From IMG/VR virus record IMGVR_UViG_3300045988_113377, positions 1 through 64,000 of that record: a stretch of 64,000 nt of DNA; one strand, given 5' to 3'. Below are positions 19,306-53,516 of this stretch, in pieces. Both the position numbers and the translations under genes were made by a program. How positions within the stretch are numbered: position 1 is the first letter of the stretch; every line of letters begins with the position of its first letter. A model generated the notes under the pieces. The model made no database searches, was not told where the DNA came from, and worked only from the letters and a program-made list of their open reading frames with translations. The stretch comes from a virus.

Positions 19306-19614
19306 TTGAATCTTTTTTATTATCGAAAGACATATCTTTGTCCAAAAAAAACAAACATAATGGAAGAAAAAGAGATAAAAGAAGCTATGATTGAAGCCCT
19401 GACGCACTTAGAGGGGTGTAAGTATTTCGTGGCTACGATAGTAAATAAAGAGGAAAGAAGATTTGATATGAGCCTAAGAATGTCACAGTATCAATTGGCG
19501 TTAGTTATAAAAGGCATCTTATCTAATAATGAAATGATGATGATGGACGTTTTGCAGTGGTGTTCTGAAAGACTTAAAAATAGTATAGAGAAAGGAAAGA
19601 AATCAACTAATTAA
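19306..19614 (+). CDS. hypothetical protein (start likely ATG 19360, MEEKEIKEAM)
   Basis: ORF only. Confidence 0.45.
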   Translation: MNLFYYRKTYLCPKKTNIMEEKEIKEAMIEALTHLEGCKYFVATIVNKEERRFDMSLRMSQYQLALVIKGILSNNEMMMMDVLQWCSERLKNSIEKGKKSTN

Positions 19615-19625
19615 ATATTAATACA

Positions 19626-20096
19626 ATGAATCGCTGGTTTGAAATTACGGTAAAAGCCGAGATTGATAATATCGAGAACGGCAAAAAAAAGAAAGTAACT
19701 GAAAAGTATTTGGTAGATGCCTTATCTTATACAGAGGCAGAATCAAGATCTTTAGAGATTTTCAAGGATTTATTTCAAGTGTTCGACATTGTTAAAATAA
19801 ATCCTATTAAAGTGTCGGAAATCTTCTTCAACGGAGAAGCTGAGTACTGGTATAAGTGTAAGGTAAATTACATTACACTGGATGAAAAGAAAGGTAAAGA
19901 AAAGAAAATTCCATGCTATATGTATGTCCAGGCCGGCAATCCTAAGGATGCCGAAGCTGTGTTGACTAAAGGTATGCAGGGCACGTTAGGCGACTGGAAT
20001 TGCGAAGCTATTGCTGAAACGAAGATCATTGACGTATTCAAATATGATCTTCAGAAGGGAGCTGAAAAATTAGGCGAGAAGAAGAGTGAAGAGTAA
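19626..20096 (+). CDS. hypothetical protein (156 aa)
   Basis: ORF only. Confidence 0.5.
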   Translation: MNRWFEITVKAEIDNIENGKKKKVTEKYLVDALSYTEAESRSLEIFKDLFQVFDIVKINPIKVSEIFFNGEAEYWYKCKVNYITLDEKKGKEKKIPCYMYVQAGNPKDAEAVLTKGMQGTLGDWNCEAIAETKIIDVFKYDLQKGAEKLGEKKSEE

Positions 20097-30854: not shown

Positions 30855-31870
30855 TGGTCCCGGAAACGCATTTGCTATATAAGGAGTTTAATGGCGTGAA
30901 ACGTCTTGCCATTTCCTATTCCCAGATAGATACGTTTCTTACCTGTCCAATGAAATGGTATAAGACTTACGTAGAGGGCAAAAGGTCTACGGAAAAACAA
31001 GAAGCTACCTCTTATGGTACGGTTATCCATAAGACACTGGAATACTTTTTTAAGAACGGAAGACAGCCTTCTGGTAAAGACCTTGGAGAAGCAATAAGTT
31101 ACTATGCTTACCAGGAAGACATACCTTGGCAATCACCGGAAAATATGATGATAGCCATGAAGCAATCTGGAGAGCTTCTTGCTTGGATTGTGGATCTGTT
31201 CAAAAAAGACGGCAATAGGTTTATGATAGCTGATAGTGATCTTAATCCCTGCGAGAAACTTATCAGACACGGCGCTATAGTTGGAGTCGAAGAAGATTTT
31301 GTGCTGCCGTACCGTCTTCCTAAGCCTGTTAACATAAATGGAGTAATTCATACTCATGTGTACATAGTAGGATCGGTAGACCTTCATCTGGCTATAAAAA
31401 GCAAGAACGTAGTTCACCATTATGTCATAGATTGGAAATCAGGTAATAAGGTTTTTGATTCTAAGAAGTTGGAAACGAATTTACAGCATCCTATATATTC
31501 ATTTTACATCTATAGAAAATATGGTGGAGTTCTACCAGATATGAACATCTATTTCTTTACCAGAACCAGACAATACCAAAAGGTTAAGGTGGATGAGGAA
31601 CGTAAAACAAAATCTATAGAGATGCTAAATGACACTTTGTCTAAAATGTATGATTTTGAAGATAATAGTGTAAAATCATTTCAAGCGTACATCCAGGGAG
31701 CAGAAGGAGCCAGGTATAGCAAGCGGCGTGCCACCCTAAGCCAGCCTGTTTCGCAAAACAAGCTACCCTGCCCGTCAGCACTGTGTTATTATTGTGACTT
31801 TGGATTACATAACAAAAACGAATGCCCTTTCTCTTCGGATTGGGATCCGTCTAAAAAGATAAAACGATGA
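30851..31870 (+). CDS. Cas4/RecB-family PD-(D/E)XK exonuclease with Fe-S cysteine cluster
   Basis: N-terminal Cys (TFLTCPMKW), VDLH...IDWKSG nuclease core, C-terminal CPSALCYYC...ECPF. Confidence 0.65.
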   Translation: MMVPETHLLYKEFNGVKRLAISYSQIDTFLTCPMKWYKTYVEGKRSTEKQEATSYGTVIHKTLEYFFKNGRQPSGKDLGEAISYYAYQEDIPWQSPENMMIAMKQSGELLAWIVDLFKKDGNRFMIADSDLNPCEKLIRHGAIVGVEEDFVLPYRLPKPVNINGVIHTHVYIVGSVDLHLAIKSKNVVHHYVIDWKSGNKVFDSKKLETNLQHPIYSFYIYRKYGGVLPDMNIYFFTRTRQYQKVKVDEERKTKSIEMLNDTLSKMYDFEDNSVKSFQAYIQGAEGARYSKRRATLSQPVSQNKLPCPSALCYYCDFGLHNKNECPFSSDWDPSKKIKR

Positions 31871-32038
31871 AATACGAGGACGTTCAAAAGTTAAGAACAA
31901 AATACCGGCAAGACCCGGAAGTTATAAACGTAGAATACATGAGAGACGTTGCTGTAAGATGCGGGAATTTCAAGAAAGCGTTTGAGCTTCAGGAGAAGCT
32001 GGAGGATATATGGTTCAACTATTTAAAAGGAGTGTAAT
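31868..32038 (+). CDS. small hypothetical protein (56 aa; below ORF-track cutoff)
   Basis: ATGA overlap with upstream gene stop; fills gap. Confidence 0.3.
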
Positions 32039-32360
32039 GAAAGAAGATCTAATATGTGGAGTAGCGATCCTTTTGTATTTAGTTTTATTATACTTACTCA
32101 CGACAGCTTTCATAAAAACAGGTAGAGCAGTAGAGCGTTATAAGATGAAGAAGAAAACTGACAAAATCAAAGTAGGTCAAAGATACGAACATAAGAGCTA
32201 CTTTGAGGATCCATTTGAAAGAGGCAAGCATGTGATTAAGATATTAGACATAAAAGAAGGGTACGCTCTATATGAGTACGAAGAAAAACTATATATACGT
32301 TCTTCTGTGAGTCTTGAAGATATTGCTAAAATATATGTTTTAATTACTGATATAAAATAA
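32010..32360 (+). CDS. hypothetical protein with N-terminal TM helix (116 aa)
   Basis: ICGVAILLYLVLLYLLTTAFI. Confidence 0.45.
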   Translation: MVQLFKRSVMKEDLICGVAILLYLVLLYLLTTAFIKTGRAVERYKMKKKTDKIKVGQRYEHKSYFEDPFERGKHVIKILDIKEGYALYEYEEKLYIRSSVSLEDIAKIYVLITDIK

Positions 32361-47000: not shown

Positions 47001-47514
47001 TATCCTGTACCATAGATACGGGAGTGAAGTCCGAAGATATAGCATCTTGTAGATACCGCCCTGCGTCTATTCCCGGTCCTTCCGGTACGGAAATACTTGA
47101 CGGGACCATAGCATCTACCAACATAATATTATCACCCAGATCTTGGCTGTAAAATCCAAAGCCCGATTCTCGGATTTCATAAGGTGCATCTGATTTTGAC
47201 ACAAGAACAGGGTTACTCATCTTAGAAGCCTTATCCAGCACCCTTTCCCTGTAGGCTTCCGGAATAAGATCGATGTTGGATTTCACCTTATTGTAGGCCT
47301 GTTTGTTGATAGGCACTCTCTTTCTCCAGTCGCCAAAAGCCTTTAAGAACTTATTAGAAAATACGGTTTTAAAAACAGTAGTAGCCCGTTCCCTATTCTC
47401 CATAAGAGGAATAGATGCTATTTTATCAAACAACATAGACCTGTCCCCTGATCTGGTAGAGACAGAAACAACTTTCTTTTTATTATCTCTTTTAATAATA
47501 CACGTTGATGTCAT
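41092..47514 (-). CDS. giant protein (2140 aa), probable virion/ejection-associated protein; function unassigned
   Basis: uninterrupted 6.4-kb ORF; no SD; late-strand location. Confidence 0.7.
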   Translation of the reverse strand: MTSTCIIKRDNKKKVVSVSTRSGDRSMLFDKIASIPLMENRERATTVFKTVFSNKFLKAFGDWRKRVPINKQAYNKVKSNIDLIPEAYRERVLDKASKMSNPVLVSKSDAPYEIRESGFGFYSQDLGDNIMLVDAMVPSSISVPEGPGIDAGRYLQDAISSDFTPVSMVQDKGVNYMVIKDGLKIFSPEELPQTDSNPVGVTYQTGEPRLFFMNDRNQLFEDYGEALRSGGNDIRIGFLSGTVQESAWDGVADITYKAGRYVLNNPKSFIPVMTASASTSLSTKGGIINYLIKKGLLSGSKIFDPETRSYYLTGEGHTGQIRLFNSALSYTELRNHFGSDVSMNDQGMITISSLDNSKVTMRLATGGTERVSKEQIKNDLKSGRYNELDAKYDHFDALVVSFILEDNDLYADTKAKIVSDYSRQERDQRNSIVEILKTLGVSVIGMTDYIEKYQTKYGHEPSAKALADIANNVIAVGEDATLSDLVEETSHFLVEAYRDQNAVEAVLQDVEGTEEWNQYAGQYYNTYGKVYEGSELDNAVRREILGKILAREMQTGTAQAPVEPTSFLGRVRQLLSGIVSWLKSALSTQRQDLNNVIKNIRDLAITDIDKGFDTSLLKDNDFTLYSLSSMNKNKFLESKIRSLRKTLRDLRQISSDRAVTTSMTLEQLKTIEDKINKVETEIDKNEMAAAMNSMISTAEAQVRYLSNVVNTILHGDTKDGKLHFNTNDRKNVDIINNQVLPIMNDLRGYIRNRSTEFDEREKQDYTNRINTVIADINGIQSDIKSVQDLDESTLLDKLMNELHVPADKVKRVKEFFDKVQHDVSWISRWFGILEHSSSPFNNALGAMIAKDNYNAMVNAQPAISDFLAYAKKHGFNKSEFEKLLQKVDGKTSNYLRSALDMAKYDRNKKLAQMRAFATAMNIEISEEEIGDVVDNNRNYVFKREVVDKDGNTVTENAKFKPSSDRVNTDIFTIEQEKIYTEQMEKWDAENSELEFSESYATRMESIYKKAEEELGHPVSQTTKEYLNALSRQKRILRQPFIDSGGNFDEVAYFKSSNYEEEGLLRKQRKEAASEYIYVGTRRVEKTGDQLKMAKEIQAINEVWRKESNNATNAVSESFLQKLRTIQNELGGEAALKTLMLGGHLSFNDRFWNDVESEQSARTESNNKASYLKMAHDIISSTTSDRDATDVDSIVKDIEKNKAIIKEIIGNNRDVADIGEINEATFTSSERDAFRAASEAIEADYAILIDYAKMVGLEDIDKYLTKSSKAENEVNQSYLNALADSKEVEWKFVQRHTTAKKAKRIQALRDKLFKAADNRYLFTVSETNYLSEKLGISKELDGRDFRNAVNAKMVSLFLNNTREEGVEEANAIVNEFARSQVFSYYKRMAPTGYAAMIDKIGRGEIDVAQMVKDVQNGTSTQDYGMDISYLSFDPARAWVAESEAENSGRNPDYVKDHGYGHRMPKKSLYRDESYFNDFGIKYDADGNEVATKNVEQWNMIQKLKEIKRQSLDLYKEQSPNLYAIPQISKQDIERVEGLGINFKNTVRNFVSDLCLDRVDDSLYGKTRQGEVYDPEDRLRSIPKYYIYELENQDDVSHDFGYSYSMLMMQSSLYNEKQKSIELAQGLEQMLLNKQFEGGKKAEATQAYQMFRDFFNDHYYGIRMNTKKLTVNIGGYTVDLTRIMMAVERFMSVMNLALSPFVAATGALTGHINLIMESAVGQYISKDSLKYASAEFSRLAPSCIAETGDIDRKSKLYVIGERMGIFNIRNRMYGAGYNRAARTLMRSPMYAFMEILNYPLDPQVMIATMDNVRYYKGRFYTFQDFKMEKERGKEQSTIKREWNALKDRTLWSMVDVVDGKVVVKPGSGVTVEEVETQMAITRNQVRSLSQICNGSLNEENRTAASRNWIARFMTAHRGWLVLSAQRLWKRRGFNFQTMQEEEGLSITLKNMIAKTFSLASESGMKNIIDAWNENKDNMNEVEKTNLKRLSVYAGTFLIMQAVSMLLAGWRDDDENEESWLTQFGSYVGFRTINEIASQMPFIMELNVVDIINDPFVMGRKLKDLTDLRNYSLDKVTSGTYKGESKSFRQLAKQTFIKQWYNIKTPEDVARAYNWWQQTNNKSMMFFIGATPDSEGDDDVSYK

Positions 47515-47561
47515 AGTAAAACATTTTTGTTATAAGACAAAGGTAGTTAAAAATCAAGCAT

Positions 47562-47604
47562 ATCATAAAAAATAAAGCCATCTAACTTCTCAGTCTGATG
47601 GCTT
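47562..47604 (-). terminator. rho-independent terminator (AAGCCATC/GATGGCTT) for minus strand
   Basis: 8-bp perfect stem 47575-47582/47597-47604, U-tract on minus strand. Confidence 0.55.
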
Positions 47605-47659
47605 AAAAATAATATGGAAAAAAAATAATTATAACTTGACGCCAATTGTCAAGTTCAGC

Positions 47660-47983
47660 TTATATGTAATGCATGTACCCATCTCGGTGTATAAACCTTC
47701 CCGATTCAAAGCGCTCAATATCTTCAGGGCAAATAGGGCCCGAATCCTCTCTCCTGGCTTCAAACCAAAGCCCCGGCTTACGAAGTCGGCAAGTTATGAT
47801 ATAGTTAAAGCAATTGTGCGTAAAATGGAAAACAGATCCTACAGGGAAATACCTATCAGCTTGAAATACGATTCTTTTTCGTTTAGTATCAAACGTGATA
47901 TCTCCTACTATCTTAGCCACGTAATAGCTTCTGCCATTTAACGTTTCATCTGTCTGCGGTATCCAATAATAACCTCTTGCCAT
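47660..47983 (-). CDS. hypothetical protein (107 aa) in terminator-bracketed mini-unit
   Basis: ORF between two hairpin terminators. Confidence 0.45.
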   Translation of the reverse strand: MARGYYWIPQTDETLNGRSYYVAKIVGDITFDTKRKRIVFQADRYFPVGSVFHFTHNCFNYIITCRLRKPGLWFEARREDSGPICPEDIERFESGRFIHRDGYMHYI

Positions 47984-47992
47984 GCCACAAAT

Positions 47993-48036
47993 ATAAAAAA
48001 AAGTCGGATAACTTACGTACCCGACTTTATTATTTG
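47993..48036. terminator. bidirectional terminator (AAGTCGG/CCGACTT with A-tract and T-tract)
   Basis: 7-bp stem 48001-48007/48021-48027 flanked by A10 and T-rich runs. Confidence 0.5.
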
Positions 48037-48086
48037 TTTAAATAGTTCAATTCCGCCATTTTTTTATGATATGTCCTGCTTGGTAA

Positions 48087-48437
48087 TCATATGATAAACA
48101 TTTCTTTCAAGATACTATTTTTTATACTATATATCAATTTCATCTCATCTCTATCATATACGTCAAAAAAGGATTCACTTAAGTTCTTTGGATTTACATT
48201 CAGTTGAATTATGCAATTACCGGTATAAACCTTAATTCCGTAATTATCAGAGTATATATCCTGCATAGTATCAAATGTCTCAATTAAATTTTCAACAAGG
48301 GCTCTGTTAAATGAAAAAGATTCTTTACCATCACCTTTAAATGTGATATGATCTAAATCCCTGTTGTCAAATTCATACTCTAACTGATTGCCGTCCATCA
48401 TATCATAAAATATTGACTTTCTGATTATAAATCCCAT
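48087..48437 (-). CDS. hypothetical protein (116 aa)
   Basis: ORF only. Confidence 0.5.
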   Translation of the reverse strand: MGFIIRKSIFYDMMDGNQLEYEFDNRDLDHITFKGDGKESFSFNRALVENLIETFDTMQDIYSDNYGIKVYTGNCIIQLNVNPKNLSESFFDVYDRDEMKLIYSIKNSILKEMFII

Positions 48438-48453
48438 ATTATTTTGTTTTTAG

Positions 48454-48759
48454 TTAATATAAATCTTCTGAATACAATTGTTCTCTAACGGCATTCCTAT
48501 CTACTACCATTTCCTGATTATTGTTTCTAACAAGTTCAGATGCCTCCTCTCTTGTTAAAAACCGATTCTTGCTTGTCAAAAATCCTTGAACACTGCGGTT
48601 TTTATGGGCTATACCGTATGCCGCAAGTTGAGATAGTATAGAGGGGTGTCTCAATCCACAGAACACGGCGCCGGATGGTATATTGGTGGGCTGATGGGGA
48701 CGCTTCTTGCCGTCCTGCACCCAGATGGCGGCGCATATTACTATTTCTTTATTATACAT
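48454..48759 (-). CDS. hypothetical protein (101 aa)
   Basis: ORF immediately downstream of iscB. Confidence 0.5.
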   Translation of the reverse strand: MYNKEIVICAAIWVQDGKKRPHQPTNIPSGAVFCGLRHPSILSQLAAYGIAHKNRSVQGFLTSKNRFLTREEASELVRNNNQEMVVDRNAVREQLYSEDLY

Positions 48760-48796
48760 GATACGTTTTTCTATTAAATTTATTAAATCTATTCAT

Positions 48797-50017
48797 TTAC
48801 TTTAATATAATCGGATGCCTCTTCCCTCTAATGAGTTTAAACTTTTTGCGTGAAACATCTTTTGAATTTTCTCCGTTGAAATCCCTGATATTGAAACTCC
48901 CTGATTTTCTCCTTCCATAAACAAAACATATTTTATTATTATACAACACTTTATCAAACAACCTAAAACCAAAAACCTCAAAAGGAGCTTGATTGTTTTT
49001 CTTCTTTCCTCCTTTTAAAATTTTCATTTTATGTATTTGCCTATTATGCCTACGAATTAAACGTTTTAAATATTGACATCCGATTCGTTTCGCATTAATG
49101 TTCTTAGAAATGACAAACGCGTCGGATGTATGGGATTTTTCAATCCCGTATTTAATCCGATTATGTTTCGTAATGTAACCAAACGTCATAGAAACTCTGT
49201 CGTATCTGGATCTCAGTTCTTCATACAACTTCCATTTCATGATCCCCATTACGGCTGCGTCGCGTAGCGACTTGCCTCTTCTGATCTTTAAATCTATATT
49301 ACCTTTATGGTATTCTTTGTGACAAGTTTCACATAAGGTAATAAGATTGGATGGGGAATCTCCACCTGTCTTTCGTGATTCAATATGATGAACGTTAAGA
49401 ATCGCATCTTTCGATTTCCCTTTACAATACTGACATTTATGTCCATCTCTTGCTAAAACATATTCCCTAACGTTCCAAAATCCAAGTTGATCACCCTCCT
49501 GATATTCTTTACCAGATATCTCAGGATTGTTAATCTTTTGAGTATCGAATTGAGCTACCTCAACAACAATACGAGATATTGGTAATATAGAACATACATT
49601 GTCAATAACACGAATATGAGCGTCTACTTTGTACCGCACCGAAGGTGCTATCCATCCTTGACGTTTGTTTTTCACCCTGTTGTCAAAACGAGGTTTTCTA
49701 TATCTCAATCTATTTCGTCTCGTTCTTCTCGACTCTCTTCTGGTAGACAAAAGATCTACAATATCATTTCTAAGAATTACCTCACTACTGTAAAGTTCTT
49801 TGCTTTTCGTCGTAGCTGATAGACCAACATGCTTAGTTCCAGCATCAACGCCTAACACAATTTCTTGTTTGTAATCGGATGTGACGTACATTAATTTGAT
49901 GGTAAACGGACATAGGTTCACAACGACTGCCTTGTTTTCTTTAAGCAGTCGTCTTACCTTACCATGCCTTGTTGTAGGCATCATAGGTTTACCATTTATG
50001 TCTTGTACGTACACCAT
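48797..50017 (-). CDS. iscB: IscB, OMEGA RNA-guided nuclease (PLMP domain, RuvC-I, Arg-rich bridge helix, RuvC-II, HNH, RuvC-III, C-terminal TAM-interacting domain)
   Basis: N-terminus VYVQDINGKPMMPTTRHGKVRRLLKENKAVVVNLCPFTIKL matches the IscB PLMP domain; GVDAGTKHVG (RuvC-I Asp); RRESRRTRRNRLRYRKPRF (bridge helix); VVEVAQFD (RuvC-II Glu); CQYCKGKS...NVHHIE...CETCHKEYH (HNH); KSHTSDAFVI (RuvC-III His/Asp). Confidence 0.85.
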   Translation of the reverse strand: MVYVQDINGKPMMPTTRHGKVRRLLKENKAVVVNLCPFTIKLMYVTSDYKQEIVLGVDAGTKHVGLSATTKSKELYSSEVILRNDIVDLLSTRRESRRTRRNRLRYRKPRFDNRVKNKRQGWIAPSVRYKVDAHIRVIDNVCSILPISRIVVEVAQFDTQKINNPEISGKEYQEGDQLGFWNVREYVLARDGHKCQYCKGKSKDAILNVHHIESRKTGGDSPSNLITLCETCHKEYHKGNIDLKIRRGKSLRDAAVMGIMKWKLYEELRSRYDRVSMTFGYITKHNRIKYGIEKSHTSDAFVISKNINAKRIGCQYLKRLIRRHNRQIHKMKILKGGKKKNNQAPFEVFGFRLFDKVLYNNKICFVYGRRKSGSFNIRDFNGENSKDVSRKKFKLIRGKRHPIILK

Positions 50018-50379
50018 ATCTACAAACGTTTTTAATGTTTATTCAACATAAGTCAGGAATATTTCATCCTGTTAGTACCCATCGCCAATGTTATAAGAGG
50101 TTTTGATGCAAGCAACACTGTTTCGCAAATACACTACTCCTGTTTAATCGCTTGCCTTAGGGCTACGGACTTGGGCAAACATCCGTAGGTAACTATCTAT
50201 TCTCAAATAACGTAGCCTTAGTTTCAAGGCTTAGGCTAATATCCGGACCATTTCTGGTACATTAAAACCTTATAATGAAATTATATTGTTTTAATGTTAT
50301 TTCGGATATACAGATATACTTTTTACCCCCAATCGATTCTTTTTATCTTACGACCTAATTTAAGCCGTTCTAAAGCCTG
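50018..50379 (-). ncRNA. candidate omega-RNA of IscB (structured non-coding leader directly upstream, same strand)
   Basis: 362-nt ORF-free interval with multiple mutually exclusive helices (GGCTACGG/CCGTAG/CGTAGCC, TAGCC/GGCTA) consistent with a pseudoknotted scaffold; position matches known IscB-omegaRNA architecture. Confidence 0.55.
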
Positions 50380-51033
50380 TTAGAATGTCATGCCATGACG
50401 AGGCAGTTTGAGATACTTTTCAAGTCTGTCGGAGGCTTCATTTGGTGTATGGCCATCGTATTCGAAAGCGGTTTCTCTTTCAGGAACATCAAACAAATCC
50501 CAGTATTTGCTTTCATAGTGATTAGATACCTGACCGGTAGGTAGGATCGCCATCACAATAAACCAATCATCAGAACCGAAGCATTTTTCTCCGTCGCTGT
50601 GTCTCCTTGATTTGCAAACTTCAACCTGTCCGCTTCTGGCTAATAGATTAAAGAAGGCAGCGTTATACAACATGCGATACCGATACAATTCATTGAAAGT
50701 GTGGTATCCGTCAGAGACTTCTCCCACGTCTACAGGCTTCTTGTTTTGAATACTACCCAAAATATTCTCTATATAGAGCTGTATTTTATACATACCCATT
50801 TCGGTGTGGCCGTATTTGTTCAAGATATTATTGACATCGTATTGTATATTAAAATCTTTTTCAAATTCTACTTCAGGATGATTAGGATAGTAGTAATCTA
50901 CTGATGCTTCTAACACAGACTTGATATGCTCTACTATCCTCGTGGCATCATCATGTTTTAAGAAATTCTTGAATCCCTCAACGAATTTAATATCTTCTTC
51001 GATTGTTGATTCGAACTCTTCTTTTGTCATCAC
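50380..51033 (-). CDS. hypothetical protein (217 aa)
   Basis: ORF only. Confidence 0.55.
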   Translation of the reverse strand: MMTKEEFESTIEEDIKFVEGFKNFLKHDDATRIVEHIKSVLEASVDYYYPNHPEVEFEKDFNIQYDVNNILNKYGHTEMGMYKIQLYIENILGSIQNKKPVDVGEVSDGYHTFNELYRYRMLYNAAFFNLLARSGQVEVCKSRRHSDGEKCFGSDDWFIVMAILPTGQVSNHYESKYWDLFDVPERETAFEYDGHTPNEASDRLEKYLKLPRHGMTF

Positions 51034-51083
51034 TCTAATTACATCTTTTTTTTAAATCGTCTAATCCCATGATTTATTTTAAA

Positions 51084-51725
51084 TTAGTTGTTATTATACT
51101 TTTTTATCCTACAATACAAATCCAATAAGAACTCAGCAGAAAAACCATCCCATGCATTATTCTGCCAAATATCTACTTTGTTAATAAACCAAGACCATGT
51201 AGGACCATCATATGAAGAATCAGATGATGATCCCAATCCGATTTTCTCCATTTCATTCGCCACATCAGAATAAGGATCTAAATCGACTCCCCTAATCATG
51301 TTAATAATATCACCCTTGTCTAATGTAAATTGAAACCGCTCCTTGTTAGTAAGCGAATCTTGATTCAATTTACCAGTCGCAAGCCATTCTCCATCATGAT
51401 ACAATTCGGCAAGTTTCTTTACCTTATTTTTAAGAAAAGAATACTCTTGTGTGACTTCTATAAAATCAGCTTCGTTAGCTTCACCCTCTATGAAGATAAC
51501 GGTTTTGCTTCCAGGTCTATGATCGTCTAAGCTTGCCGGGATTCCCAATATCGTCCATCCTTTAAACTCAGCTATCTTAAAACGCATGACATCAAACACC
51601 TTATAGAAATCATCACAATCTACAGATTCTATTACCTTAATATCCTCTTCTGTGAATTTACCTCGTATTGGAATAACGTGATGACCGGGGCAGCCATCGG
51701 TTCCGAAATATGCGATTCTAACCAC
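51084..51725 (-). CDS. hypothetical protein (213 aa)
   Basis: ORF only. Confidence 0.55.
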   Translation of the reverse strand: MVRIAYFGTDGCPGHHVIPIRGKFTEEDIKVIESVDCDDFYKVFDVMRFKIAEFKGWTILGIPASLDDHRPGSKTVIFIEGEANEADFIEVTQEYSFLKNKVKKLAELYHDGEWLATGKLNQDSLTNKERFQFTLDKGDIINMIRGVDLDPYSDVANEMEKIGLGSSSDSSYDGPTWSWFINKVDIWQNNAWDGFSAEFLLDLYCRIKKYNNN

Positions 51726-52604: not shown

Positions 52605-52688
52605 TCATATTTTTCACTATGGCTCCCGCACCACCGTTAGCCCCGGCTCCATCTAAAAGGACGATTTTATCACCACCCATAATTTTAT

Positions 52689-52862: not shown

Positions 52863-53516
52863 TCAAGCCATGTTACACAACTTGAATTTATATTCATCAA
52901 TTATATCATTCAAGTCACAATCTGATAAGTTGAACCATTCTCTGTATATTCCTTTGATATCGAATCTTGCATGAAGCTCGCTTTCTATGTCTTTATCCAC
53001 ATAAGCTATTAATGTTAAGTTATCTTCTACAACAGACAATCCAGATAGCCTTCTTTTTACATCAGAACTTTTACCTATTTTATAGAAACCATTATTATTA
53101 TTTCTTATTATATATGTAAAATATTTTATATATTTTTTATTATATCTACCAATAAATCTATGTGTTATATCTAATACACAATCTTCATTTTTAATATTAC
53201 ATAAATCAAATACATCGTGAATAAAATCTTTAAATAAAGACCTATCACACTTCATACAGATAATACATAGAATCGATTTGGGGAATAAATAATAGTCATG
53301 CCTAAATACATGACTATCATTATCTATTATTTGATTTCCATTATTATCATATCTGTATGATATATAATCTATCCCATCCTTAAAATCAAAAGATGATATT
53401 ACATCCTTTATCCAATGTTTAAAATCATACTTACATTCTAACAGTTTATGAACGTATTTTGCGTCAATCATCTTTCTGTCATTTATTAACACAAAAGGAA
53501 TAAAAGTATTATCCAT
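52863..53516 (-). CDS. Bro-N-like + T5orf172 (GIY-YIG-like) domain protein, AT-rich moron
   Basis: C-terminal GFYKIGKSSDVKRRLSGL...NLTLIAYV...ELHARF...REWFNL matches T5orf172 signature; gene about 27% GC. Confidence 0.55.
   Translation of the reverse strand: MDNTFIPFVLINDRKMIDAKYVHKLLECKYDFKHWIKDVISSFDFKDGIDYISYRYDNNGNQIIDNDSHVFRHDYYLFPKSILCIICMKCDRSLFKDFIHDVFDLCNIKNEDCVLDITHRFIGRYNKKYIKYFTYIIRNNNNGFYKIGKSSDVKRRLSGLSVVEDNLTLIAYVDKDIESELHARFDIKGIYREWFNLSDCDLNDIIDEYKFKLCNMA

What the first reader, a model, noticed from the sequence alone, without database searches (positions are those of the whole stretch)
48797..50379. Complete IscB RNA-guided nuclease with upstream omega-RNA-like leader embedded in a phage late-gene region
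The 406-aa minus-strand ORF carries every hallmark of IscB, the IS200/605-associated ancestor of Cas9. It has an N-terminal PLMP domain (INGKPMMPTTRHGKVRRLL), which closely resembles the characterised OgeuIscB N-terminus as recalled from memory, not checked. It has a RuvC-I Asp (GVDAGT), an arginine-rich bridge helix, a RuvC-II Glu (VVEVAQ), an HNH module with Cys pairs and the catalytic His (NVHHIE), and RuvC-III His/Asp (HTSDA). All catalytic residues appear intact. Directly upstream on the same strand is a 362-nt ORF-free, helix-rich interval, exactly where the guide-plus-scaffold omega-RNA is encoded. No TnpA is present. The locus sits inside a phage structural module, so it may be a phage-borne OMEGA system, either a mobile passenger or a weapon against competing elements.
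Basis: partly seen in the sequence, partly recalled or inferred. Interest (0 to 1): 0.85.

Follow-up and report, generated by a model that had tools for sequence, protein, structure and literature searches.

The report
Phage-borne IscB guide-RNA nuclease element
A gut phage carries a complete, apparently working copy of IscB (the small RNA-guided DNA cutter from which Cas9 evolved) with its guide RNA; this is a known kind of selfish mobile element, and related phages show it has spread widely and here removed part of a neighbouring anti-defence gene.

Summary
Window 48797-50017 (-) encodes a 406-aa IscB: NCBIfam guided_IscB scores 362 bits against a cutoff of 175, OgeuIscB matches at E~1e-43, all catalytic residues are intact, and the best fold matches are solved IscB complexes. 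Immediately upstream, 50071-50309 (-) passes Rfam's HEARO (omega-RNA) threshold at 100.6 bits against 83.

Comparison with about 190 related phage loci defines a 1550-bp element, 48760-50309, made of omega-RNA scaffold, iscB and a 37-nt tail, with no TnpA. The scaffold starts exactly where homology to element-free relatives ends, so the guide is the flank (50310-50325).

The family sits at many sites in ~150-kb human-gut phages, always directly 5' of an ATG. That is the complement of the ..CAT motif published for GstIscB. Of 114 occurrences of the guide core, 108 are followed by ATG. IscB dN/dS is 0.06-0.19 and the omega-RNA helices covary. Element-bearing phages cluster only in the 260 nt next to the element.

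The most likely explanation is a non-autonomous IS200/605-type element that persists and spreads by RNA-guided cutting of element-free genomes followed by copying. In the window it has removed the Tad2-like domain of a neighbouring gene. It is a new member of a known kind. The host phage is an unclassified Caudoviricetes; I found no support for calling it crAss-like.

The parts
48760..50309 (-). The whole mobile element (1550 bp): omega-RNA scaffold, iscB and a 37-nt tail. No transposase gene.
   Evidence: Homology to element-free csAssE-Sib stops at 48762 and resumes at 50306. The same block with these ends abuts many different flanks in related phages. The 5' end carries a 2-nt 'AT' ambiguity.
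48797..50017 (-). iscB coding sequence, 406 aa (stop TAA at 48797-48799).
   Evidence: ORF; Pfam RRXRR+HNH; NCBIfam guided_IscB 362 bits vs cutoff 175; PDB OgeuIscB E~1e-43 and hhalign 100% over residues 2-333; Foldseek top hits are IscB complexes, 8CSZ E 2.3e-21; dN/dS 0.06-0.19.
50018..50309 (-). omega-RNA scaffold. 50071-50309 is the Rfam HEARO match; 50018-50070 holds further conserved 3' hairpins outside the Rfam model.
   Evidence: Rfam RF02033 100.6 bits vs 83. 24-sequence alignment with 11 base pairs kept through double changes. The outer helix ATATCCG/CGGATAT becomes ATAATCG/CGATTAT in the second subfamily.
50310..50325 (-). Predicted guide segment, 5'-UAAAAAGUAUAUCUGU-3'. It is flanking phage DNA abutting the scaffold. 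The 16-nt length is assumed from OgeuIscB, from my own knowledge.
   Evidence: The scaffold's first base is the first base after homology to empty-site phages ends. The guide core is followed by ATG in 108 of 114 occurrences. There is no second match with 3 or fewer mismatches in the window. Transcription and the RNA 5' end were not tested.
48760..48796 (-). 37-nt conserved tail (ATGAATAGATTTAATAAATTTAATAGAAAAACGTATC). This is the transposon's left end on the opposite strand, and it ends directly at the ATG of the next gene.
   Evidence: The tail is conserved at different insertion sites and is always followed by ATG plus unrelated gene sequence. A weak AT-rich inverted repeat at 48769-48810 folds no better than shuffles.
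48454..48759 (-). Downstream 101-aa phage gene. Its ATG (48757-48759) is the ATG motif next to the element, and its first ~260 nt form the only tract linked to element presence.
   Evidence: Linkage test: nearest-neighbour purity 0.80 against 0.28 expected in 0-260 nt, and none beyond 350 nt. PHROG of unknown function.
50310..50379 (-). Decayed remnant of the first ~23 codons of a Tad2-like (Thoeris anti-defence 2-like) domain. It is cut off by a premature TAA (50380-50382) and carries a +1 G (run of 5 G at 50326-50330).
   Evidence: Base-level alignment with csAssE-Sib. The csAssE-Sib orthologue has WDGH plus Tad2-like domains, PF11195 at 8.7e-13. The same TAA is present in the other window-type loci L013 and L017.
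50380..51033 (-). Upstream gene, now WDGH domain only (217 aa). It is co-directional, so read-through transcription could supply the guide.
   Evidence: Pfam WDGH 3.6e-36. The transcription role is an inference.

Best explanation
This is a complete, non-autonomous IS200/IS605-family element of the iscB-only type, carried by a ~150-kb human-gut tailed phage. It encodes the RNA-guided nuclease IscB and its omega-RNA. The scaffold is the transposon's right end, so the guide is the ~16 nt of phage DNA that abuts it. Here that DNA is a piece of a Tad2-like coding sequence.

Proposed working: a transcript reading in from the upstream gene gives guide plus scaffold. The IscB-omega-RNA complex cuts any copy of the phage genome (a sister or a co-infecting relative) that still has the guide sequence followed by the motif ATG, meaning genomes without the element at this place. 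Its own locus is spared because there the guide is followed by the scaffold (ATA...). The break is repaired by recombination with the element-bearing genome, which copies the element in together with the adjacent deletion. This is the published TnpB/IscB 'homing' logic, applied between phage genomes. New insertion sites, always immediately 5' of an ATG and usually a gene's start codon, require a Y1 transposase supplied in trans, which was not found.

Shown here: identity of protein and RNA, intact catalytic residues, purifying selection, RNA covariation, exact element ends, many insertion sites, clean empty sites, the ATG rule, presence of target plus ATG in element-free relatives, and a short linkage tract.

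Inferred: transcription, cleavage, the guide length, that ATG is the TAM, and homing itself.
For: Identity: IscB; omega-RNA.

Function maintained: dN/dS 0.06-0.19 against copies up to 17% diverged, and most of the 79 copies are intact at 406/408 aa.

Element ends.

Mobility: 328 confirmed copies in viral contigs, several contigs with two copies. Clean insertions with no duplication or loss at L040/41/63 and L031/36-39, and empty sites for L005, L019, L024 and L049, two of them in this window.

Motif: at nine junction classes the undisturbed sequence continues directly with ATG, and several more do so after a 2-nt AT shift or by manual tracing. The background ATG frequency is 0.019 per position. 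The 3' flank starts with ATG at every site. This matches the published GstIscB/TnpA TAM TTCAT read on the other strand, and the published placement of HEARO at the right end (PMC10055086).

Target logic: the guide core is followed by ATG in 108 of 114 occurrences, by the element in 4 and by ATA in 2. There is no second target in the window.

Spread across backgrounds: element-bearing loci cluster only in the 260 nt 3' of the element (purity 0.80 against 0.28 expected; identity 0.917 against 0.845) and are interspersed from 350 nt outward and on the 5' side.

TnpA-less.
Against: There is no expression or cleavage evidence. The guide length and RNA 5' end are assumed.

The ATG rule could reflect only the specificity of an unseen transposase, or selection for harmless sites, rather than IscB's TAM.

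The linkage pattern is also what an old insertion followed by frequent recombination would give. The 5' flank is 97-98% identical among all loci, so it carries little signal, and the apparent asymmetry is weak evidence.

At the window's own locus no simple insertion state was found: every filled relative has lost at least the 91-aa gene.

The C-terminal 70 aa do not align by sequence to the OgeuIscB TAM-interaction domain, and the model is of moderate quality (pLDDT 68).

Only partial genomes were searched for TnpA.
Confidence: 0.7

Rival explanations
1. An ordinary transposon-maintenance role only. The element is mobilised and excised by a host or other-element Y1 TnpA, and IscB merely re-cuts the scarless excision joint so that a sister genome restores the element ('restorative homing'). 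There is no conversion of other phages.
For: This is the experimentally shown role of TnpB/IscB (PMC10055086). The many insertion sites next to a ..CAT/ATG motif imply transposase activity at some time. The excision joint and the empty allele are the same sequence for clean insertions.
Against: No TnpA in the window or in 1.8 Mb of related loci. At the window's locus excision could not recreate a cuttable joint, because the guide would then be joined to the ATG of the 101-aa gene in a sequence no relative shows. Yet the guide's natural target plus ATG exists in about 95% of relatives. The element is found on many backgrounds with only a short linked tract.
Confidence: 0.17
2. A domesticated phage weapon. 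The phage keeps IscB because it destroys competing phages (localized marker exclusion or killing), or targets host or satellite DNA, rather than because the element drives itself.
For: Related phages that keep the Tad2-like sequence carry the target plus ATG, so cleavage would harm competitors. Free-standing phage homing endonucleases are known to do both (review PMC13565253).
Against: At every site the guide is simply the local flank, with no sign of retargeting. Copies are multi-site and some are broken or reduced to mini-elements, which is the pattern of a selfish element. No host match could be tested. This rival overlaps with homing rather than excluding it.
Confidence: 0.08
3. An inert passenger: a recently immobilised relic whose nuclease or RNA no longer works.
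For: No transposase. The guide-side flank is decaying (stop codon, frameshift). Small deletions in the guide region occur in relatives (L004, L013, L054, L055). Some copies are disrupted.
Against: dN/dS 0.06-0.19, all catalytic and zinc residues invariant, compensatory changes in the RNA, and an Rfam score above threshold.
Confidence: 0.04
4. A nuclease-dead RNA-guided regulator (by analogy with TnpB-derived TldR repressors) controlling the downstream gene.
For: The element always sits directly upstream of a gene's ATG and is co-directional with it.
Against: The RuvC and HNH catalytic residues are all intact and invariant. The guide matches the upstream flank, not a promoter of another gene.
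Confidence: 0.01

Closest known systems
OgeuIscB-omega-RNA (human-gut metagenome IscB; PDB 7UTN, 7XHT, 8CSZ)
   Same: Same domain order and catalytic residues; hhalign 100% probability over residues 2-333, with 34% identity. It is the best structural match. The omega-RNA is encoded 5' of the gene on the same strand.
   Different: 406 aa against 496 aa. It lacks a ~35-residue insertion after the bridge helix. The C-terminal domain is ~70 aa and not alignable by sequence to Ogeu's ~110-aa TAM-interaction domain. The inferred motif is ATG, whereas Ogeu's TAM is NWRRNA (abstract of PMC12660989, listed).
GstIscB / ISGst5 of Geobacillus stearothermophilus (Meers et al., PMC10055086)
   Same: iscB-only IS200/605 element with HEARO at the right end and the guide taken from the flank. 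The TAM TTCAT is shared by TnpA and IscB; on the IscB-sense strand it reads ATGAA, matching the ATG(W) rule here. The proposed role is cutting the element-free allele so that recombination restores or copies the element.
   Different: That system is chromosomal with a TnpA in the same genome. Here the carrier is a lytic-type phage genome with no TnpA found, and the relevant element-free allele is in other phage genomes.
HEARO RNA, Rfam RF02033
   Same: Passes the curated threshold over the full model, 1-211.
   Different: The conserved structure continues ~50 nt beyond the model's 3' end, with covarying hairpins, as Meers et al. also noted for the family. The 5' hairpin region differs completely between the two phage subfamilies.
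Free-standing phage homing endonucleases (T4 SegF/SegB, Mob; 'intronless homing', localized marker exclusion)
   Same: A nuclease gene sits between conserved phage genes. Its target lies in the allele lacking the gene. Short co-conversion of an adjacent marker is seen (review PMC13565253).
   Different: Recognition would be by a guide RNA plus a 3-nt motif rather than by protein, and self/non-self follows from the element's own insertion. No experimental evidence exists here.
IscB/HEARO copies already deposited in phage genomes (Clostridium phage c-st, Ralstonia and Staphylococcus phages)
   Same: IscB homologues occur in 30 GenBank phage records, usually labelled 'HNH endonuclease'. HEARO is noted in Silviavirus phages (PMC13346280). 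PHROGs phrog_119.
   Different: All are below 60% identical to this protein. None belongs to the csAssE-Sib lineage, and csAssE-Sib itself has none.

Membership tests
IscB (RNA-guided endonuclease, OMEGA) | Curated whole-protein family model | tested here: met
   NCBIfam NF040563 guided_IscB (equivalog) 362.2 bits against cutoff 175, residues 2-303.
IscB (RNA-guided endonuclease, OMEGA) | N-terminal PLMP domain and arginine-rich bridge helix | tested here: met
   Pfam RRXRR 8.9e-61 over residues 2-175. PLMP motif GKPMMPT aligned to OgeuIscB GKPLMPT. P11, M13, P14 conserved.
IscB (RNA-guided endonuclease, OMEGA) | Split RuvC with catalytic Asp, Glu and His/Asp | tested here: met
   D58, E153, H296, D299 align to the OgeuIscB motifs and are invariant in 66 sequences.
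IscB (RNA-guided endonuclease, OMEGA) | HNH domain inserted in RuvC, with catalytic His and two Cys pairs | tested here: met
   Pfam HNH 7.6e-11, residues 195-238. H210/H211, C195, C198, C229, C232 invariant.
IscB (RNA-guided endonuclease, OMEGA) | C-terminal TAM-interaction domain | tested here: inconclusive
   Residues 334-406 are conserved among homologues (G337, D355, R369, R370, G373) and are modelled as a five-stranded beta unit with block-mean pLDDT about 67-84. But phmmer, a profile search and hhalign all stop at about residue 333. Foldseek alignments are full length but TM-scores are only 0.37-0.44.
IscB (RNA-guided endonuclease, OMEGA) | Overall fold like solved IscB | tested here: met
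   Top Foldseek PDB hits are 8CSZ (2.3e-21), 9LIQ, 9NVU, 7UTN, 9K30 and 7XHT, followed by IsrB and Cas9. The model is of moderate quality.
IscB (RNA-guided endonuclease, OMEGA) | RNA-guided double-strand DNA cleavage | not testable with these tools
   Needs biochemistry.
omega-RNA / HEARO (RF02033) | Covariance-model score at or above Rfam's gathering score | tested here: met
   100.6 bits against 83, full model, 50071-50309 (-).
omega-RNA / HEARO (RF02033) | Immediately 5' of iscB on the same strand | tested here: met
   The scaffold ends 53 nt before the iscB ATG by the Rfam model, and conserved hairpins fill the gap.
omega-RNA / HEARO (RF02033) | Structure supported by compensatory changes | tested here: met
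   11 of 64 predicted pairs have double changes that keep pairing. The outer helix covaries between subfamilies. Caveat: the sequences are related, and no R-scape-type statistic was run.
omega-RNA / HEARO (RF02033) | 5' guide taken from DNA flanking the transposon end | tested here: met
   The element/flank boundary coincides with the first scaffold base at more than 30 different flanks. That the flank is transcribed as a guide was not tested.
IS200/IS605 family, iscB-only (non-autonomous) element | Insertion without target duplication or terminal inverted repeats | tested here: met
   Clean empty/filled pairs at the L040 and L005 sites. Exception: the L031 group, whose tail repeats 15 nt of the flank.
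IS200/IS605 family, iscB-only (non-autonomous) element | Conserved short motif (TAM) flanking the left end, also required next to the guide's target | tested here: met
   ATG follows the element at every site and follows the guide match in undisturbed alleles. Background frequency is 0.019 per position. Whether IscB needs it is untested.
IS200/IS605 family, iscB-only (non-autonomous) element | Y1 (HUH) TnpA transposase | tested here: not met
   Absent from the element (there is no room in 1550 bp), from the window and from 1.8 Mb of related loci (best E 1.1, probe validated at 145 bits). Absence in cis is normal for iscB, about 1.5% having tnpA nearby, so the element is filed as non-autonomous. 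A trans source is unknown.
IS200/IS605 family, iscB-only (non-autonomous) element | Sub-terminal hairpins at both ends | tested here: inconclusive
   Right end: the terminal helix ATATCCG...CGGATAT is present and covaries. Left end: only a 75%-complementary AT-rich repeat at 48769-48810, with fold z = +0.89.
Homing (super-Mendelian) nuclease element | Target present in element-free alleles and absent from the carrier | tested here: met
   108 of 114 occurrences of the guide core are followed by ATG. The window's own copy is followed by scaffold, with no other match.
Homing (super-Mendelian) nuclease element | Element on unrelated backgrounds with a short co-converted flank | tested here: inconclusive
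   The pattern is as expected, but an old insertion plus frequent recombination gives the same pattern.
Homing (super-Mendelian) nuclease element | Nuclease-dependent over-transmission in mixed infection | not testable with these tools
   Needs an experiment.

The most novel reading that the evidence does not exclude
In these gut phages the IscB elements act as transposase-independent RNA-guided gene drives between co-infecting genomes, and they renew their own guides. Any deletion that joins the scaffold to a sequence whose intact allele is followed by ATG creates a new working guide. Such a copy is immune to older versions, because their target is gone, but cuts every genome that still has the sequence, older versions included. 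This would produce a one-way ratchet that erases neighbouring accessory genes, here a Tad2-like anti-defence domain. IscB-less omega-RNA mini-elements elsewhere in the same genomes would add further guides in trans, a step towards an array of guides.
Probability: 0.2. Interest if true: 0.8.

Novelty: new member of a known kind. Interest (0 to 1): 0.55.

Why it matters
IscB-omega-RNA is the ancestor of Cas9. Its natural role has been shown only for chromosomal transposons in one bacterium, and homing into co-infecting phages is so far a theoretical category (PMC13565253). This family gives a natural population in which that idea is directly testable. It offers hundreds of near-identical copies, known empty alleles, a simple inferred motif (ATG), candidate resistant alleles, and nested variants with different guides. 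It also shows a mobile element removing part of a phage anti-defence gene, so such elements may shape phage accessory-gene content. In practical terms it is a compact (406-aa) IscB with a possibly very short TAM. None of this changes what kind of system it is.

Tried and rejected
(1) 'crAss-like phage': I assumed this from the name csAssE-Sib and used it while working. The taxonomy entry says unclassified Caudoviricetes. The giant virion protein otherwise matches only Cellulophaga phages phi17:2 and phi4:1 at 22% identity. The label is dropped, and the two literature searches built on it were therefore of little use.

(2) Sequence alignment of the C-terminal domain to OgeuIscB's TAM-interaction domain failed with phmmer, a 12-sequence profile and hhalign.

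(3) Left-end hairpin: not supported.

(4) A crude HUH...Y regex for TnpA was replaced by tblastn with a Pfam-validated IS608 TnpA probe. This probe would miss very divergent transposases and anything outside the fetched flanks.

(5) Host-genome source: the genome scan found only one close copy, in a 20-kb contig of a Vibrio olivae assembly with no other clear similarity to the window. All other hits were 60% identical or less. The search is seeded by exact peptide words.

(6) GenBank phages: no close relative.

(7) Other copies, tRNAs or other RNA families in the window: none.

(8) P0001 (520 aa) is an IscB with an internal tandem duplication, not a fusion.

(9) A TnpA-type 'adjacent deletion' and recombination between two neighbouring copies were both considered for the nested 5' junctions. 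Neither can be separated from selection on random deletions with these data. Two direct copies 3 kb apart do exist (L035).
Full report
OBSERVATION.
The minus-strand ORF 48797..50017 (406 aa) exists as described.
- Pfam finds RRXRR (8.9e-61, residues 2-175) and HNH (7.6e-11).
- NCBIfam's equivalog model for RNA-guided endonuclease IscB scores 362 bits against a cutoff of 175.
- The best solved relatives are OgeuIscB and engineered derivatives (E about 1e-43 to 1e-45).
- A 12-sequence profile raises this to 1e-63 to 1e-65, and hhalign gives 100% probability over residues 2-333. I had recalled the OgeuIscB sequence from memory; its C-terminal 123 residues were checked against the PDB and match 7UTN chain D residues 373-495.
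- In a 66-sequence alignment whose non-phage members are 58-64% identical, D58, E153, H210, H211, H296, D299 and the four zinc cysteines are invariant.
- An AlphaFold model built from that alignment is of moderate quality (pLDDT 68, pTM 0.51). Its best Foldseek matches are the IscB-omega-RNA-DNA complexes (8CSZ 2.3e-21, 9LIQ, 9NVU, 7UTN, 9K30, 7XHT), then IsrB and Cas9.
- One feature is not confirmed: the C-terminal TAM-interaction domain. Residues 334-406 are conserved and modelled as a small beta unit, but no sequence method aligns them to OgeuIscB's larger domain.

THE RNA.
An E-value scan of 47500-51200 and a gathering-threshold scan of the whole window each give one significant hit. It is HEARO (RF02033), at 50071-50309 on the minus strand, 100.6 bits against a gathering score of 83, matching the full model. 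HEARO is the RNA now called the IscB omega-RNA (PMC10055086).

In an alignment of 24 diverged copies, 11 of 64 predicted pairs keep pairing through changes on both sides. The conserved structure continues about 50 nt beyond the Rfam model, to just before the iscB start codon. The outermost helix pairs the very first bases of the conserved block with a segment 60-75 nt downstream. It reads ATATCCG/CGGATAT in one subfamily and ATAATCG/CGATTAT in the other, which is a compensatory change.

WHAT THE ELEMENT IS AND WHERE IT ENDS.
The window is 93-95% identical to phage csAssE-Sib (OR575929, 151 kb, human gut), which has no IscB. Homology breaks at 48762 and resumes at 50306. In between, 1543 bp in the window replace 388 bp in csAssE-Sib.

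A scan of IMG/VR found 328 confirmed relatives of the protein, mostly on 80-160-kb contigs, and several contigs carry two copies. A scan for the upstream flank gave 109 more loci, most of them without the element.

Across these loci the conserved block always begins ATATCCGAAATAAC (subfamily A, 88-95% aa identity) or ATAATCG(A/C)GAATAAT (subfamily B, 82-85%). It always ends with a short tail after the iscB stop codon, directly followed by the ATG of a different phage gene.

In window coordinates the element is 48760-50309 (1550 bp). The scaffold begins at the element boundary, so the guide must be flanking DNA. Assuming the 16-nt guide length of OgeuIscB (my own knowledge), it is 50310-50325, UAAAAAGUAUAUCUGU.

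NO TRANSPOSASE.
A remembered IS608 TnpA sequence was first validated as a Y1_Tnp member (145 bits). It was then used in tblastn against the window and all 210 loci (1.8 Mb), and the best E-value was 1.1. The same probe finds 122 phage records in GenBank, so it works.

Absence of tnpA next to iscB is the rule: about 1.5% have one nearby (PMC10055086; also PMC9755519). The element is therefore a non-autonomous IS200/605-type element. Only partial phage genomes were searched and no host is known, so a trans-acting transposase is neither found nor excluded.

INSERTION RULE.
Several sites have clean empty counterparts.
- At the L040/41/63 site the empty allele reads ...GTTTGTATC|ATGAAAG and the element sits exactly at the bar, with nothing lost or duplicated.
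- The L031/36-39 site is the same, with a 2-nt AT ambiguity.
- Other sites are replacements that run from one ATG to the next gene's ATG: 28 nt (L024 group), 170 nt (L019), 181 and 272 nt (L049 and L048).
- The empty versions of the L019-type and L049/L048-type sites are in this window, at 31851-32039 and 19352-19637 on the plus strand.

In a census of 34 flank classes, the undisturbed sequence continues with ATG at nine classes directly. Several more do so after the 2-nt shift or by manual tracing (L031/36, two mini-elements, L040, L005, L006, L007). ATG occurs at 0.019 of positions. The exceptions are copies with a few bases missing right next to the scaffold (L004, L013, L054, L055), and L049 (ATA).

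[quoted passage not shown] Read on the IscB-sense strand, that is ATGAA placed 3' of the guide match, which is the arrangement found here. I therefore take ATG (..CAT in transposon orientation) as the likely TAM/target motif. This is an inference from comparative data, not a measured specificity.

THE WINDOW'S OWN LOCUS.
In csAssE-Sib the upstream gene encodes WDGH plus Tad2-like (Thoeris anti-defence 2-like) domains and is followed by a 91-aa cysteine-rich gene.

The least-deleted filled relatives (L002, L003, L010) keep the whole WDGH/Tad2-like gene. Their element begins after GGGATGAGTTTGTTTGT, seven codons into the 91-aa gene, where the empty allele continues ATGTTC.

The window type (also L013, L017, L105, L106) lacks a further 117 bp, with TGTAT present at both breakpoints. 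This removes the C-terminal two thirds of the Tad2-like domain. The rest is cut off by a GAA-to-TAA change at the domain boundary, shared with L013 and L017, and in the window alone it also carries a +1 G.

Other relatives keep the same 3' flank but have 5' junctions progressively further upstream:
- in the Tad2-like domain (L096);
- in the WDGH gene (L007, L015/18);
- in the 213-aa gene (L012/14);
- in the 71-aa gene (L022, L011).
Where the undisturbed sequence could be traced, each junction lies directly before an ATG.

No relative shows a simple insertion at the ATG of the 101-aa gene with the 91-aa gene intact.

IS IT FUNCTIONAL?
IscB dN/dS against nine copies is 0.06-0.19, with dS 0.25-1.1. 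Most copies are full length. The RNA covaries. All of this argues against a relic.

DOES THE GUIDE HAVE A TARGET?
The 15-nt guide core occurs 114 times in the window and fetched loci. It is followed by ATG 108 times, by the element 4 times (the window among them) and by ATA twice (csAssE-Sib type). The window has no second match with 3 or fewer mismatches.

So nearly every relative that retains the Tad2-like sequence carries guide match plus motif, including relatives that have the older L002-type element 117 bp downstream. The window's own copy is followed by scaffold.

For the L002-type guide, 57 empty alleles have ATG and 25 have TTG. The TTG comes from a synonymous GTA-to-GTT change in the 91-aa gene. 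It is a candidate resistant allele, but this is a single case.

SPREAD.
Among loci that share the 3' flank (20 filled and 50 empty distinct sequences), filled loci are each other's nearest neighbours in the first 260 nt 3' of the element. Purity is 0.80 against 0.28 expected, and identity is 0.917 within filled against 0.845 between filled and empty. This is not seen at 350-700 nt (0.21), at 1.3-3.8 kb (0.05-0.40), or anywhere on the 5' side (0.00-0.15).

The element is therefore on many genomic backgrounds with only a short linked tract. That fits copying by recombination after a break at the guide/ATG boundary: the 5' side is flush with homology, while the 3' side must be resected through the non-homologous 91-aa gene. 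It equally fits an old insertion followed by frequent recombination, and the 5' flank has too little variation to make the asymmetry convincing.

Among the 109 loci chosen without regard to IscB, 13 are filled at this site.

MECHANISM, WITH RIVALS.
Most likely (0.7 overall; identity about 0.97, homing between phage genomes about 0.6): a non-autonomous IscB-omega-RNA element whose nuclease cuts element-free alleles and is copied in by recombination, with new sites created at some time by a transposase in trans.

Rivals:
- maintenance after TnpA excision only (0.17);
- a domesticated anti-competitor weapon (0.08, not exclusive);
- an inert relic (0.04);
- a nuclease-dead regulator (0.01).

For the nested junctions I see three possibilities that the data cannot separate:
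- transposase-type joining of the right end to a downstream ..CAT site;
- recombination between two neighbouring direct copies (two copies 3 kb apart exist in L035);
- random or microhomology deletions, of which only those that create a working guide-plus-ATG pair are amplified by drive.
The last is the basis of the 'novel case'.

COMPARISON AND NOVELTY.
Protein, RNA, architecture, TnpA-less state and proposed role all match the known IscB/OMEGA kind. IscB homologues and HEARO are already present in deposited phage genomes, labelled HNH endonuclease. Public metagenome collections hold far more than 8000 homologues, named at most 'RRXRR protein [Bacteriophage sp.]'.

In the held literature I found no description of this phage family or of inter-phage IscB homing. 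A 2026 review lists the latter as theoretical.

Verdict: a new member of a known kind. Interest is moderate (0.55), because the comparative material makes an open question testable rather than because the system is unusual.

CONTEXT CORRECTION.
The carrier is an unclassified Caudoviricetes phage. 'crAss-like' was my unsupported assumption. The element lies in an islet of small accessory genes on the minus strand, between a 2140-aa virion structural protein (phrog_37651) and a 2213-aa protein that matches only a PHROG of unknown function.

Noticed in passing
window 50310-51033 (-); L001 5934-6689: The element has removed the Tad2-like (Thoeris anti-defence 2-like) domain of a WDGH+Tad2-like gene. 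The remaining WDGH gene ends at a new TAA placed exactly at the domain boundary, shared with L013 and L017. This suggests the truncation was tidied up by selection.
   Followed up: partly
window 31851-32039 (+) and 19352-19637 (+): The window holds empty versions of two other insertion sites used by this element family in relatives (L019-type, and L049/L048-type). At the L019-type site the guide-matching sequence is followed by ATG, so this phage would itself be a target for those copies. The L049-type junction is followed by ATA, not ATG.
   Followed up: partly
L019:1994-~2365 and L078:7451-~7830: IscB-less mini-elements of roughly 370 nt: a full HEARO scaffold (112.9 and 99.2 bits, above Rfam's threshold of 83), a short linker and the family's tail. 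They sit at two different sites, each directly before an ATG, in genomes that also carry intact iscB copies. They might supply extra guides in trans.
   Followed up: partly
L031, L036-L039 (element tail and 5' flank): In this group the last 15 nt of the element tail (AACGCAAAAAAGGAA) repeat the 5' flank/guide (AACGCAAAAA(T)AAGGAA). This gives a direct repeat of the target around the element, which the usual IS200/605 insertion does not produce. It is unexplained.
   Followed up: no
L004, L013, L054, L055, L060 (5' junctions): Small deletions (4-10 nt or more) lie in the guide-coding DNA right next to the scaffold, changing the guide. They do not obey the ATG rule. The cause is unknown; slippage, or weak self-cutting next to the ATA of the scaffold, are guesses.
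   Followed up: no
empty alleles of the L002-type target (e.g. L081-L189): 25 of about 85 empty alleles have TTG instead of ATG next to the L002-type guide match, through a synonymous change in the 91-aa gene. csAssE-Sib has ATA instead of ATG next to the window's guide match. These are possible cleavage-resistant alleles.
   Followed up: partly
window 52863-53516 (-); window ~52620-52640 vs L001 7632-10354: A 217-aa protein combines an AntA antirepressor domain with a T5orf172/MUG113 domain and a sub-threshold GIY-YIG match. It lies in a region that does not align to csAssE-Sib. The window also lacks about 2.7 kb present in csAssE-Sib, including a gene annotated 'spike protein'. This stretch is a variable islet.
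   Followed up: no
L067 (iscB codon ~196), L062: L067's iscB has an in-frame TAG where the window has CAG (Gln). This is either a nonsense mutation or TAG read as Gln in that phage. L062 has an in-frame TGA at a Lys codon.
   Followed up: no
L071, L009, L021, L016, L020: Mosaic or damaged omega-RNAs. L071, L009 and L021 combine a subfamily-B 5' hairpin region with subfamily-A-like segments, indicating recombination between subfamilies. L016 has an inverted duplication at the outer helix. L020 has lost almost the whole scaffold but keeps an intact iscB.
   Followed up: no
L190 (NZ_JBHMEP010000019.1, Vibrio olivae CECT 8064 assembly): This is the only close copy (88% aa) found in the bacterial/archaeal genome collection. 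It lies on a 20-kb contig with almost no other similarity to the window. It could be a phage contig, a contaminant or a real transfer.
   Followed up: no
L040:442-588: Two adjacent tRNA genes lie about 3 kb upstream of a subfamily-B element in a related phage. The 64-kb window itself has no tRNA.
   Followed up: no
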